DNA of 24,247 bases from Anaerolineae bacterium (lineage in GTDB: Bacteria > Chloroflexota > Anaerolineae > Fen-1058), in contig PMCF01000162.1 in assembly GCA_003154115.1 (NCBI GenBank), positions 3,958 to 28,204 of the forward strand, given 5' to 3'. The notes beneath the pieces are model-generated. The model did no database searches, was not told the origin of the DNA, and was given only the letters and a program-made list of their open reading frames with translations. Each line of letters begins with the position of its first letter. The first letter of the stretch is position 1. Position numbers and translations under genes: made by a program. Below, one piece after another: positions 4,880 to 9,107 of the stretch.

Positions 4880-5008
4880 TGGACAAGTCAGCAATTCTCA
4901 ATATGAAAACAATTGACGTCGGTAGTTGCGACTTCAGTCGCCTTGTGGCCGCAGACCACGACTGAAGTCGTTACTACGAATCCAAATTGAGAACTGCTGT
5001 GGACAAGT
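4880..5008. mobile_element. MITE-like element: 9-bp direct repeats (TGGACAAGT) flanking 14-bp terminal inverted repeats around a 19-bp-stem hairpin
   Basis: TGGACAAGT at 4880-4888 and 5000-5008. CAGCAATTCTCAAT at 4889-4902 versus ATTGAGAACTGCTG at 4986-4999 (13/14 complementary). Internal hairpin 4922-4977. Non-coding. Confidence 0.4.
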
Positions 5009-5054
5009 GGGGCGACTGGTCAAGCCGTCACTCATCGTGTATGATCAAACGTAA

Positions 5055-5160
5055 CTACTCAGGCGTCATTGCGAGGAGCGCTTCTCAGCGGCGAAGCAAT
5101 CTCTACGTCGATCGGGAGATTGCTTCGCAAAAAGCGCTCGCAATGACGGTGGCTGAGTAG
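5055..5160. repeat. Long (106 nt) near-perfect extended hairpin / palindromic element immediately upstream of the 5200 gene
   Basis: Nested complementary blocks: CTACTCAG/CTGAGTAG, CGTCATTGCGAG/CTCGCAATGACG, GAGCGCT/AGCGCTC, GCGAAGCAATCTC/GAGATTGCTTCGC. Apical loop TACGTCGATCGG. About 40 bp paired. Confidence 0.4.
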
Positions 5161-5199
5161 ATACGATCAAGCGACGTTTATGATGTGTGAAGAGTAAGC

Positions 5200-5640
5200 A
5201 TGAGCGAATTGCCGACAGTCAGCGAGAAGACCTTTCGATATCCGGCGCTCTATCGGGTGGTGGCGTTATTTGGCGCGTTGTTGTTTGGATTCATCTTGTT
5301 GGGGTCGGTGATCGCCGAGGTTGAAGCGATCAAGAACAGCCGGATCGATGCCGTGCTGCACGTGATCGGATTCATCTCCGGTATGCTGTTGTTGGTGATG
5401 GGAATTGATTTTGCCACCCGCTCGATTACAGTGACGCCCGACGGCTTGCGAGTGCGGTGGTTGCTGCGCCGATCGGTGATACCGTGGTCCGACGTGCTCA
5501 GCTGGAACTACTTGCCCTTGAGCCTCATCCATCTGCGCTTCCGGCACGGGCGTGGCGTGTATGTGTGGCCGCTATTGGAAGATTATCTGGATCTGCTCAG
5601 CGCGATCGACGCGCGAAGGTTTGACCAGTTCACTAAGTGA
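5200..5640 (+). CDS. Small membrane protein, two TM helices followed by a bacterial PH-like (DUF304/YdbS-like) domain
   Basis: 146-aa ORF. Hydrophobic helices at about 20-40 and 52-72, then ITVTPDGLRVRWLLRRSVIPWSDV... The stop is followed closely by the next gene. Confidence 0.5.
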   Translation: MSELPTVSEKTFRYPALYRVVALFGALLFGFILLGSVIAEVEAIKNSRIDAVLHVIGFISGMLLLVMGIDFATRSITVTPDGLRVRWLLRRSVIPWSDVLSWNYLPLSLIHLRFRHGRGVYVWPLLEDYLDLLSAIDARRFDQFTK

Positions 5641-5650
5641 GAGGTGGTTT

Positions 5651-8582: not shown

Positions 8583-8610
8583 CGTGATAGAGAGAACGAG
8601 AGATGGAGAG

Positions 8611-8653
8611 AACTCGGTCGGCTATTTTTTGCCAGCCGAGTTTTTCTTCTTCT
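8611..8653. terminator. Probable bidirectional terminator after mutS, overlapping the last codons of the convergent tfoX-like gene
   Basis: AACTCGGTCGGC / GCCAGCCGAGTT arms (10/12 paired) with loop TATTTTTT, followed by TTTCTTCTTCTT. Confidence 0.45.
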
Positions 8654-8963
8654 TAACGGGCAAGGGCAATTCTTTCGCGGTGACTTTGATCAACTCGGTC
8701 AGCGCTTCGCGGTCTTCCAGTAGATCGGCGGAAATCAGGAAGCACGGTTTCGCGCCGGGATAAGGGCTGGCTTCCGTAATCGTTTTCAACAGACTTCTGC
8801 CGCCTATGGTCGGCTTGACGAAGAGTTGATCGTCACACACCAGGGCGACCATTTTTCCGTCGCAGTACAGGCCGTATTCGCCAAACATCTTTCGTGCAGA
8901 GACATTGCCTGCTTCTGAAATTTGATCGAGAATGAAATCGACCGTGCTTTGTTGAGAGGACAT
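8622..8963 (-). CDS. tfoX: TfoX/Sxy N-terminal-domain protein (competence-regulator family, N-domain only)
   Basis: MSSQQSTVDFILDQI...ARKMFGEYGLYCDGKMVALVCDDQLFVK is a typical TfoX_N signature. No TfoX_C domain; lysine-rich tail. Start at the ATG preceded by GGAG (8963) rather than the upstream ATG at 8981. Confidence 0.7.
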   Translation of the reverse strand: MSSQQSTVDFILDQISEAGNVSARKMFGEYGLYCDGKMVALVCDDQLFVKPTIGGRSLLKTITEASPYPGAKPCFLISADLLEDREALTELIKVTAKELPLPVKKKKNSAGKK

Positions 8964-8981
8964 GAAAACTCCTTGAATCAT

Positions 8982-9107
8982 TAGAGCGGTTTCCAGGTTA
9001 GTTTACGACATCGGACTCGAGGCTTCAGCCGGATTTGCCGCAGACCAGCTAACCGGCTAAAGCCTCGAGTCCCAACGAAACCGTAAATCAAAGTGGAATT
9101 CGCTCTA
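8982..9107. repeat. Hairpin element (20-bp stem, 20-nt loop containing GCCGCAGACCA) flanked by about 26-bp imperfect inverted repeats, immediately upstream of tfoX
   Basis: Stem GGACTCGAGGCTTCAGCCGG (9013-9032) / CCGGCTAAAGCCTCGAGTCC (9053-9072), 19/20 paired. Flanks TAGAGCGGTTTCCAGGTTAGTTTACG (8982-9007) versus CGTAAATCAAAGTGGAATTCGCTCTA (9082-9107), about 20/26 complementary. Loop and stem core shared with the 4922-4977 hairpin. Confidence 0.4.

What the first reader, a model, noticed from the sequence alone, without database searches (positions are those of the whole stretch)
4922..9072. Two hairpin elements share a conserved loop (GCCGCAGACCA) and stem core (CTTCAG) while the rest of the stem covaries
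The hairpin at 4922-4977 has stem GTAGTTGCGACTTCAGTCG and loop CCTTGTGGCCGCAGACCA. The hairpin at 9013-9072 has stem GGACTCGAGGCTTCAGCCGG and loop ATTTGCCGCAGACCAGCTAA. Their stems differ in sequence yet both keep about 19-20 bp of pairing. The loop undecamer and the CTTCAG stem segment are identical. This is the pattern expected for a structure under selection (an RNA motif or a protein-bound cruciform/hairpin), not for chance palindromes. Both lie on the same strand orientation, 40-90 nt upstream of minus-strand gene starts (the ROK kinase and tfoX). They could therefore act as cis-regulatory leaders or as a structured mobile repeat family.
Basis: seen in the sequence. Interest (0 to 1): 0.6.

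Follow-up and report, generated by a model that had tools for sequence, protein, structure and literature searches.

The report
Hairpin cores of two miniature transposons
The two look-alike hairpins are the central palindromes of two related miniature, non-coding mobile DNA elements (MITEs) that recently inserted between genes of an uncultured peat-soil Chloroflexota bacterium, so they are not conserved regulatory RNAs for the neighbouring genes; this is ordinary biology.

Summary
Both hairpins are at the stated coordinates. They share GCCGCAGACCA in the loop and CTTCAG in the stem, and 5 of 20 stem pairs differ by compensatory double changes.

The regulatory-leader reading fails and the "structured mobile repeat" reading holds.

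- **Hairpin 1** is the centre of a 111-bp insertion (4889-4999). It has 14-bp terminal inverted repeats and a 9-bp target-site duplication (TGGACAAGT). Relatives with 94% MutS identity have the empty site with one TGGACAAGT.
- **Hairpin 2** is the centre of a 126-bp palindromic element (8982-9107) with 26-bp terminal inverted repeats. This element recurs at 96-98% identity, with identical boundaries, in two other unrelated intergenic contexts. It is absent from one of those sites in a 92% relative and absent upstream of tfoX in relatives.
- **Homology.** A covariance model built from the hairpin-2 element finds the hairpin-1 element end to end.
- **Wider family.** The same termini (TAGAGCGGTTTCC...) also bound elements with other cores.

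Verdict: these are two subfamilies of an undescribed MITE family in a Thermoflexales/Anaerolineae MAG. It is a new member of a known kind, of low interest. Three things remain open: why the hairpin and loop are kept, which transposase moves the elements, and why one copy has a 9-bp duplication while the others are only TA-flanked.

The parts
4880..4888 (.). Left copy of the 9-bp target-site duplication TGGACAAGT of the hairpin-1 element. It overlaps the ROK promoter-like -35 box (TTGTCC on the - strand).
   Evidence: Direct reading. L148/L149 have a single TGGACAAGT at this site (alignment A1). Promoter scan.
4889..4999 (+). Hairpin-1 element (H1el): a 111-bp non-coding insertion, MITE-like.
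   Evidence: Absent from L148/L149 with exact boundaries. Matched end to end by covariance model R1, built from the other element: 4889-5001, 20 bits, E 0.044/0.015. Only short spurious ORFs of 57 aa or less overlap it.
4889..4902 (+). Left terminal inverted repeat of H1el, CAGCAATTCTCAAT.
   Evidence: Direct reading. 13/14 complementary to 4986-4999.
4922..4977 (+). Hairpin 1: 19-bp stem (one T.T mismatch, one G.T) and 18-nt loop.
4948..4958 (+). Shared loop 11-mer GCCGCAGACCA in hairpin 1.
4986..4999 (+). Right terminal inverted repeat of H1el, ATTGAGAACTGCTG.
   Evidence: Direct reading.
5000..5008 (.). Right copy of the 9-bp target-site duplication TGGACAAGT.
8982..9107 (+). Hairpin-2 element (H2el): a 126-bp long imperfect palindrome, TAGAGCGG...CGCTCTA, MITE-like. 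The terminal TA on each side may be a TA duplication rather than part of the element.
   Evidence: Homology to L144/L130 and L133 starts and stops exactly at these ends while both flanks differ (alignment A2). Covariance model R1 scores 143-154 bits for the copies.
8982..9007 (+). Left terminal inverted repeat of H2el, TAGAGCGGTTTCCAGGTTAGTTTACG.
   Evidence: The same terminus bounds other elements in L150 and L154.
9013..9072 (+). Hairpin 2: 20-bp stem (one C.A mismatch, which is G.U on the - strand) and 20-nt loop.
9037..9047 (+). Shared loop 11-mer GCCGCAGACCA in hairpin 2.
9082..9107 (+). Right terminal inverted repeat of H2el, CGTAAATCAAAGTGGAATTCGCTCTA.

Best explanation

Inferred mechanism: the elements carry no gene, and a transposase encoded elsewhere recognises their terminal inverted repeats and moves or copies them into intergenic DNA.

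Shown:
- H1el (111 bp) is an insertion with 14-bp terminal inverted repeats and a 9-bp target duplication. It sits between the two divergent promoter-like -35 boxes of ROK and the bPH_6-mutS operon.
- H2el (126 bp) has 26-bp terminal inverted repeats and occurs at 96-98% identity in at least three unrelated intergenic sites.
- The two elements are homologous along their length.

Inferred:
- The shared loop 11-mer and CTTCAG are inherited from a common ancestor element.
- The arms stayed complementary either because the hairpin matters to the element, or because the arms of a palindrome correct each other.
- H2el lies 18 nt upstream of the tfoX start codon and downstream of the preceding gene on the same strand. 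It is probably transcribed in the - orientation, where it would form a very stable RNA hairpin (-49.7 kcal/mol). That hairpin could affect mRNA processing or stability, as Correia and ERIC elements do. Any such effect is a by-product, not a conserved regulator.
For: - **Empty site.** L148/L149 (MutS 94% identical) read ...TTTGGACAAGTGGGCGACTGG..., whereas the window has TGGACAAGT + 111 bp + TGGACAAGT. The spacer is 125 bp in the 92% relative and 113 bp in the 86% relative.
- **Terminal inverted repeats.** Read directly.
- **H2el in other contexts.** It has identical sharp ends and unrelated flanks in L144/L130 and in L133/L150. The flanking genes there are a HEAT-repeat protein and an ABC-2 permease. 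L150 comes from the same assembly as the window's own contig.
- **Absence in relatives.** H2el is absent from the L133/L150 site in the 92% relative L154/L155, where the neighbouring hairpin is retained. It is also absent upstream of tfoX in L146 and in the P0004 contig, where tfoX overlaps the upstream gene.
- **Homology of the two elements.** Alignment score 48 against 20 +/- 4, 0/2000 shuffles. Model R1, built from H2el copies only, matches H1el over model positions 1-126 starting exactly at the boundary defined by the duplication.
- **Same termini, other cores.** The termini bound elements with different cores in L150 (250 bp, plus a truncated copy) and in L154 (115 bp).
- **No coding capacity, no known RNA.** No coding capacity and no Rfam family.
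- **An insertion-prone spacer.** The same spacer holds a second MITE-like insertion in this genome and a full IS in L145.
Against: - No autonomous element with matching termini was found.
- The copy number in the genome is unknown.
- H1el is known from a single locus.
- H1el has a 9-bp duplication, whereas H2el-type copies show only TA(G) at both ends. Related elements normally give the same duplication length.
- The empty site for the L133/L150 copy is not clean, because 36 nt of TAGTC repeats also differ there.
- Five compensatory changes in an internal hairpin, and an unchanged 11-mer in the loop, are more than plain neutral decay of a MITE would predict. However, a run of 11 identities at about 68% arm identity has a chance of roughly 0.1.
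Confidence: 0.82

Rival explanations
1. The hairpin core is a functional module kept by selection and merely carried around by MITEs. It could be a protein-binding DNA hairpin, or an RNA processing, stability or termination element. On this reading the loop 11-mer is a recognition site.
For: - There are 5 double-sided compensatory stem changes and 92.9% of cells are paired.
- The loop 11-mer is unchanged in all five sequences while the rest of the loop varies.
- Within H2el copies there is a C-G to C.C to G-C series at one stem pair.
- All three H2el copies lie between co-directional genes in the same orientation relative to transcription. In that orientation the C.A mismatch becomes G.U (-49.7 against -38.8 kcal/mol).
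- The core is shared by two subfamilies whose termini have diverged.
Against: - There are only two diverged versions, so all covariation rests on one comparison.
- Orientation agreement of 3/3 has chance probability 0.25.
- H1's non-Watson-Crick pairs favour the opposite strand (G.T on +), so no single RNA strand is consistently favoured.
- There is no U-run after either hairpin.
- Palindrome arms can stay complementary through DNA-level correction without any function.
Confidence: 0.1
2. The hairpins are cis-regulatory RNA leaders (or sRNAs) controlling ROK and tfoX.
For: Both lie upstream of genes on the - strand. The folds are stable. The stem pairs covary.
Against: - They are absent from the orthologous spacers of all relatives examined.
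- H1 lies upstream of the conserved promoter-like -35/-10 of ROK (invariant columns in A1).
- The same element sits next to unrelated genes.
- There is no Rfam match beyond sub-threshold generic hairpins.
- The elements are flanked by transposon hallmarks.
Confidence: 0.03
3. They are REP/RAYT-type or IS200/IS605-derived palindromic elements. On this reading they are moved as single-stranded hairpins by an HUH tyrosine transposase that recognises the stem-loop.
For: - Hairpin 1 starts with GTAG and ends with CTAC, and CGTC lies just upstream. These are the tags of REP superfamilies (PMC3733652).
- H2el-type copies show no long target duplication.
- The hairpin is conserved with compensatory changes.
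Against: - Hairpin 2 has neither tag.
- REP stems are 6-13 bp with mostly 2-5-nt loops (PMC3733652), against 19-20 bp stems and 18-20-nt loops here.
- H1el has a 9-bp duplication, which HUH transposases do not make (established knowledge).
- Homology and inverted repeats run to the very ends of the elements.
- No conserved target tetranucleotide lies 5' of the copies.
Confidence: 0.04
4. They are two unrelated chance palindromes that happen to share an 11-mer.
For: An unrelated exact copy of the 11-mer exists in a coding sequence. This shows that such matches can occur by coincidence.
Against: The element-wide alignment is significant (0/2000 shuffles). The covariance model hit runs end to end. 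The two share the same architecture and related termini.
Confidence: 0.01

Closest known systems
Correia repeat-enclosed elements (CREE/NEMIS) of Neisseria
   Same: Both are non-coding elements of roughly 100-150 bp with ~26-bp terminal inverted repeats. Both are flanked by TA, mostly intergenic and close to gene starts, and fold into long hairpins when co-transcribed. Both are polymorphic between close strains. Correia features are taken from PMC10969869 and from established knowledge.
   Different: No sequence similarity was tested or is expected, and the phylum is different. No IHF site or outward promoter has been shown here, and no RNase III data exist. The H1el copy has a 9-bp rather than a TA duplication.
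ERIC/IRU elements of Enterobacteriaceae
   Same: The size is about 127 bp. The whole element is an imperfect palindrome. Elements sit in intergenic and intercistronic regions and are transcribed with neighbouring genes, with effects on mRNA decay (PMC10969869).
   Different: The sequence and host are unrelated. ERIC mobility is barely documented, whereas here an empty site and several contexts are seen.
REP / GTAG-tagged palindromes with RAYT transposases
   Same: Both are extragenic palindromes with compensatory stem variation within families. Hairpin 1 carries a GTAG...CTAC frame (PMC3733652).
   Different: The stems and loops here are much longer. The hairpin is embedded in a larger element with terminal inverted repeats and a 9-bp duplication. 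Hairpin 2 lacks the tag.

Membership tests
[quoted passage not shown] | Small (about 50-800 bp) and without coding capacity (definition as in PMC11602168) | tested here: met
   The elements are 111 bp and 126 bp. The only ORF contained within either element is a 23-aa one in H1el; every other ORF listed, up to 57 aa apart from a long TTG-start extension of the ROK reading frame (3869-4894, 341 aa) that reaches 6 nt into H1el, runs out into the flanks. The translated element has no homologue among 5.8 billion proteins.
[quoted passage not shown] | Terminal inverted repeats of at least 10-15 bp | tested here: met
   H1el: CAGCAATTCTCAAT / ATTGAGAACTGCTG, 13/14. H2el: 26-nt termini, about 20/26 complementary and paired in the consensus structure of R1.
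[quoted passage not shown] | Target-site duplication of 2-10 bp flanking the element | tested here: inconclusive
   H1el meets this: 9 bp, TGGACAAGT, with a single copy at the empty site in L148/L149. For H2el-type elements, TA (mostly TAG) lies at both ends in all 5 elements seen, so it cannot be separated from the repeat itself. The one relative site lacking the element is not a clean empty site.
[quoted passage not shown] | Several copies at unrelated loci, and presence/absence differences between close relatives | tested here: met
   H2el occurs in 3 contexts at 96-98% identity. It is absent from L154/L155. H1el is absent from L147, L148 and L149, and no copy was found in L145 or L146. H1el itself is known from one locus only.
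[quoted passage not shown] | A cognate autonomous IS with the same termini that supplies the transposase | not testable with these tools
The IS seen in L145 has unrelated termini. There is no transposase gene in the window.
REP / RAYT-associated palindromes | Palindrome of 20-40 bp with a stem of 6-13 bp and a short loop, tagged by GTAG or CGTC at one end (PMC3733652) | tested here: not met
   The stems are 19-20 bp and the loops 18-20 nt. The GTAG tag is present only in hairpin 1.
REP / RAYT-associated palindromes | Insertion without target-site duplication (HUH tyrosine transposase; established knowledge) | tested here: not met
   H1el is flanked by a 9-bp duplication.
Cis-regulatory RNA leader / riboswitch-like motif | Conserved upstream of the same gene in related genomes | tested here: not met
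   The ROK spacer lacks it in L147, L148, L149 and the P0004 contig. L145 and L146 carry other insertions there. The tfoX upstream region lacks it in L146 and in the P0004 contig.
Cis-regulatory RNA leader / riboswitch-like motif | Lies within the transcribed 5' UTR | tested here: inconclusive
   H1 lies upstream of the promoter-like -35 TTGTCC / -10 TATACT, whose bases are conserved in relatives (A1). H2el lies 18 nt upstream of the tfoX ATG, so it is probably transcribed. No transcript data are available.
Cis-regulatory RNA leader / riboswitch-like motif | Match to a curated RNA family | tested here: not met
   There are no Rfam hits at gathering score. At E up to 1 the only hits are animal and plant miRNA-precursor hairpins at 18-29 bits, against thresholds of 69-90.
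Intrinsic (Rho-independent) terminator | G+C-rich stem with a short loop, followed by a U-run | tested here: not met
   The terminator scan reports neither hairpin. The loops are 18-20 nt and no T-run follows on either strand.
Integron attC site | Conserved R''/R' core sites (RYYYAAC ... GTTRRRY) at the base of the stem | tested here: not met
   Direct reading: the ends of hairpin 1 are GTAGTTGC/GTTACTAC and those of hairpin 2 are GGACTCGAGG/CCTCGAGTCC. Neither fits the core sites on either strand.

The most novel reading that the evidence does not exclude
The hairpin with its invariant GCCGCAGACCA loop is a portable functional module, for example a protein- or RNase-recognised stem-loop. On this reading selection has preserved it while it was carried by, or exchanged between, MITEs with diverged termini and different integration footprints (9-bp duplication against TA). 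The family would then spread a regulatory or structural signal through intergenic regions of these Chloroflexota.
Probability: 0.12. Interest if true: 0.45.

Novelty: new member of a known kind. Interest (0 to 1): 0.2.

Why it matters
The main value is as a correction. Two covarying hairpins with an identical loop look like a structured regulatory RNA, but here that signal comes from a palindromic mobile element. This is a useful caution for motif discovery in metagenome-assembled genomes.

The elements document an undescribed and apparently recently active MITE family (termini TAGAGCGGTTTCC...) in uncultured peat Thermoflexales/Anaerolineae. Insertions sit at promoters (ROK, the bPH_6-mutS operon) and directly in front of the tfoX ribosome-binding site. 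They may therefore alter expression of DNA-repair and competence-related genes in this strain. The literature searches made here found no report of MITEs in this group.

Tried and rejected
- **Genome-collection scan.** None of them places the motif in a hairpin; all are chance hits, mostly in G+C-rich genomes.
- **Metagenome scan.** The three-part pattern gave 16 loci. Only L130, L133 and L144 are real copies.
- **Other collections.** The viral contig scan found nothing and plasmid blastn found nothing.
- **Protein search.** The ORF that spans H2el was used as a query, hoping that gene callers had translated other copies. It found nothing.
- **Rfam.** No hits at gathering score, and only sub-threshold miRNA hairpins at permissive E-values.
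- **Literature.** A search for the 11-mer found only unrelated primers.
- **DNA-uptake sequence linked to tfoX.** Rejected: the 11-mer is not over-represented outside the elements, and the third copy is ancestral coding sequence.
- **Sigma-54 or LexA-type boxes in the loop.** The spacing and consensus do not fit on direct reading.
- **attC, intrinsic terminator, REP.** Their defining features are not met (see the membership test).
- **Clean empty site for an H2el copy.** L154/L155 lack the element but also differ by 36 nt of TAGTC repeats, so the duplication length stays open. Two further relatives' contigs came without DNA.
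Full report
**1. The observation**

The two hairpins are real and are the two strongest inverted repeats in the window. Arms 4922-4940/4959-4977 are 19 nt and 89% complementary with an 18-nt loop. Arms 9013-9032/9053-9072 are 20 nt and 95% complementary with a 20-nt loop. Both fold far better than dinucleotide shuffles on either strand.

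GCCGCAGACCA is exact in both loops and CTTCAG is in both 5' arms. A third exact copy of the 11-mer, at 750, lies inside the AlbA_2/HATPase_c_4 coding sequence. The orthologous codons (Leu-Pro-Gln-Thr) drift synonymously in relatives that lack the hairpins. That copy is therefore ancestral coding sequence and a coincidence.

The stems are homologous rather than unrelated. In an ungapped alignment anchored on CTTCAG, 12 of 20 pairs never vary, 5 change on both sides with pairing kept, 1 changes on one side, and 2 are broken in some copies. For pairs changed on both sides, 0/500 shuffles reach the observed value, and slid controls give 0-1.

**2. Source organism**

Proteins of the window are found identically on contigs of MAG GCA_003154575.1 and of Stordalen-Mire-type peat metagenomes. 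The closest named MutS homologues are from Thermoflexales/Anaerolineae, Chloroflexota. MutS homologues at 94, 92, 90, 88 and 86% identity gave syntenic loci from relatives: L148/L149, the P0004 contig, L145, L146 and L147.

**3. Hairpin 1 sits in an insertion**

The ROK/bPH_6 spacer is 368 bp in the window. It is 125 bp in the 94% and 92% relatives and 113 bp in the 86% relative. Alignment A1 shows that L148/L149 read ...CTTTGGACAAGTGGGCGACTGG.... The window reads ...CTTTGGACAAGT [CAGCAATTCTCAAT ... ATTGAGAACTGCTG] TGGACAAGT GGGGCGACTGG....

So a 111-bp segment (4889-4999) with 14-bp terminal inverted repeats (13/14) is flanked by a 9-bp direct duplication of the target. The relatives carry the empty site. 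Hairpin 1 is the centre of this segment.

The promoter scan places a -35 TTGTCC / -10 TATACT pair for ROK at 4886-4859. It places a TGGTCA-17-TATGAT pair for the bPH_6-mutS operon at 5017-5045. The bases of both are conserved in the relatives (A1). The element therefore lies between the two divergent -35 boxes and upstream of the ROK promoter. If those consensus matches are the real promoters, it is not in the ROK leader.

The same spacer also carries a second, unrelated palindromic insertion in this genome (5049-5164, flanked by GATCAA). It carries a full IS in L145 and an extra gene in L146. This spacer tolerates insertions.

**4. Hairpin 2 sits in a repeated element**

The strict metagenome pattern scan gave three true hits. 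Aligning them with the window (A2) shows near-identity (96-98%) that begins exactly at TAGAGCGG (8982) and ends exactly at CGCTCTA (9107). Both flanks are unrelated in the window, in L144/L130 and in L133.

In L133 the element lies between the stop of an ABC-2 permease gene and the start of a HEAT-repeat gene. In L144 it lies between two other genes. The L133 locus is also present in the very assembly that holds the window's contig (L150), so these are most likely further copies in the same population or genome.

The 92% relative L154/L155 lacks the element at that site while keeping the adjacent AGAAACCGGGTTTCT hairpin. Upstream of tfoX the element is missing in L146. In the P0004 contig tfoX overlaps the preceding SdpI gene, which leaves no room for it.

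The whole 126-bp element is an imperfect palindrome with 44 predicted pairs. Its outer 26 nt are terminal inverted repeats and its centre is hairpin 2.

**5. The two elements are one family**

Local alignment of the two elements scores 48 against 20 +/- 4 for shuffles, including palindrome-preserving ones, with 0/2000 as high. A covariance model built only from the four H2el copies (R1) matches the hairpin-1 element over all 126 model positions. The match starts at 4889, exactly the boundary defined independently by the duplication (20 bits, E 0.044 and 0.015 in two searches). The termini are also related (AGC-AATTCTCA against AGCGAATTC-CA).

The H2el terminus TAGAGCGGTTTCC... also bounds elements with quite different interiors:
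- a 250-bp element in L150;
- a truncated copy of it, also in L150;
- a 115-bp element in the 92% relative L154.

This is therefore a terminal-repeat family with several core types. Hairpins 1 and 2 represent one core type in two diverged subfamilies.

**6. What it is and how it works**

The features are small size, no coding capacity, terminal inverted repeats, a target duplication with an empty site, several unrelated intergenic insertion sites, and presence/absence differences between close relatives. These are the defining features of MITEs (definition in PMC11602168).

The inferred mechanism is mobilisation in trans by a transposase that binds the termini. That enzyme was not found.

The shared loop and CTTCAG segment are most simply inherited. 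At about 68% arm identity, an unbroken run of 11 in the loop has a probability of the order of 0.1, so the loop conservation is suggestive at most.

The five compensatory changes do show that complementarity of the arms is maintained. The same is suggested by the C-G / C.C / G-C series at one pair among H2el copies. The data cannot say whether this happens by selection on a DNA or RNA hairpin or by arm-to-arm correction within a palindrome. No single strand is favoured as RNA: H1 has G.T on the + strand, whereas H2 has C.A on the + strand, which is G.U on the - strand.

H2el lies 18 nt upstream of the tfoX ATG, just 5' of its AAGGAG ribosome-binding site, and 190 nt downstream of the preceding gene on the same strand. 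It is probably transcribed in the - orientation, where the hairpin is predicted at -49.7 kcal/mol. Effects on processing or stability, as documented for Correia and ERIC elements (PMC10969869), are plausible but untested.

**7. Rivals**

- **Conserved cis-regulatory leader.** This is contradicted by the comparative data above and by the absence of any Rfam match.
- **REP/RAYT or IS200/IS605-type hairpin elements.** Hairpin 1 has a GTAG...CTAC frame, but hairpin 2 does not. The stems and loops are far larger than those of REPs (PMC3733652), and the 9-bp duplication does not fit HUH transposition.
- **Intrinsic terminators.** Neither hairpin has the short loop and following U-run of an intrinsic terminator.
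- **attC sites.** The core sites are absent.
- **Chance.** Excluded.
- **Functional hairpin carried by the MITE.** This remains possible. It is the most novel reading not excluded.

**8. Open points**

- The transposase and the genomic copy number are unknown, because the genome-collection scan was wasted on a pattern that was too loose.
- H1el shows a 9-bp duplication, while all five elements with the TAGAGCG terminus are merely TA(G)-flanked. I cannot explain this difference between related elements.
- The coding stretch 741-761 contains both the H1el terminal 10-mer (CAGCAATTCT) and the H2 loop 14-mer (TTGCCGCAGACCAG), overlapping by a single base (CAGCAATTCT at 741-750, TTGCCGCAGACCAG at 748-761 by tool coordinates). 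The coding sequence is clearly older, so I treat this as an unexplained coincidence.

**9. Verdict**

This is a new member of a known kind (MITE) and of low general interest. It may be locally relevant to expression of ROK, the mutS operon and tfoX in this strain.

Noticed in passing
window 5043-5170: A second, unrelated MITE-like insertion. It is a 116-bp long imperfect palindrome (5049-5164) flanked by a GATCAA direct repeat (5043-5048 / 5165-5170). It is absent from L148/L149. It sits immediately after the promoter-like -10 of the bPH_6-mutS operon, so it is probably in that operon's 5' UTR. A related copy lies in L133 at 4872-4957, which is L150 2132-2216. L008 carries a variant with an internal deletion.
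   Followed up: partly
window 20117-20177 and 23892-23952; L133 421-482 and 1251-1314; L150 6608-6667; L154 about 11250-11310: A third repeat family: pairs of the palindrome AGAAACCNGGTTTCT separated by 25-33 nt, lying after gene ends (one between convergent genes). Unlike the MITEs, the copy next to the ABC-2 operon is conserved in the 92% relative. It may be a terminator- or REP-like signal.
   Followed up: partly
L150 12154-12403, L150 about 14116-14322, L154 12140-12254: Elements bounded by the same termini as the hairpin-2 element (TAGAGCGGTTTCC ... GGAAWYCGCTCTA) but with different interiors of 250 bp and 115 bp, plus one truncated copy. The terminal-repeat family is broader than the hairpin core, and it also occurs in a 92% relative.
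   Followed up: partly
window 738-761 (inside CDS 136-1503): The coding stretch CCGCAGCAATTCTTGCCGCAGACCAG contains the 10-mer of the H1 element terminus (CAGCAATTCT) running straight into the 14-mer of the hairpin-2 loop (TTGCCGCAGACCAG). The coding sequence is ancestral, being conserved with synonymous drift in relatives. It is probably a coincidence, but an unlikely one.
   Followed up: partly
L150 5611-5646 (L133 1443-1478): Five short TAGTC (GACTA) units with 2-3-nt spacers (36 nt) abut one end of the hairpin-2 element copy. They are absent from the 92% relative. Whether they belong to the insertion event is unknown.
   Followed up: no
L145 7400-9131: A full IS with two ORFs (DDE_Tnp_1_6 and DUF772 domains) and 16-bp terminal inverted repeats (CATACTGTTGGCAAAC) is inserted in the same ROK/bPH_6 spacer in a 90% relative. 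L146 has an ABC-F ATPase gene there. This spacer is an insertion hot spot.
   Followed up: partly
window 8622-12229 compared with the P0004 contig and L148: The segment between mutS and the methyltransferase is variable among close relatives. tfoX is fused in an operon with SdpI in the 92% relative. It is separated from SdpI by a Band7/MVP-shoulder gene and a 307-aa gene of unknown function in this genome. It is absent next to mutS in the 94% relative.
   Followed up: no
window 3819-3860: A 15-bp inverted repeat (CACAAAACTTCCCGC / GCGGGAAGTTTTCTG) lies between the convergent histidine-kinase and ROK gene ends. It looks like an ordinary bidirectional terminator.
   Followed up: no
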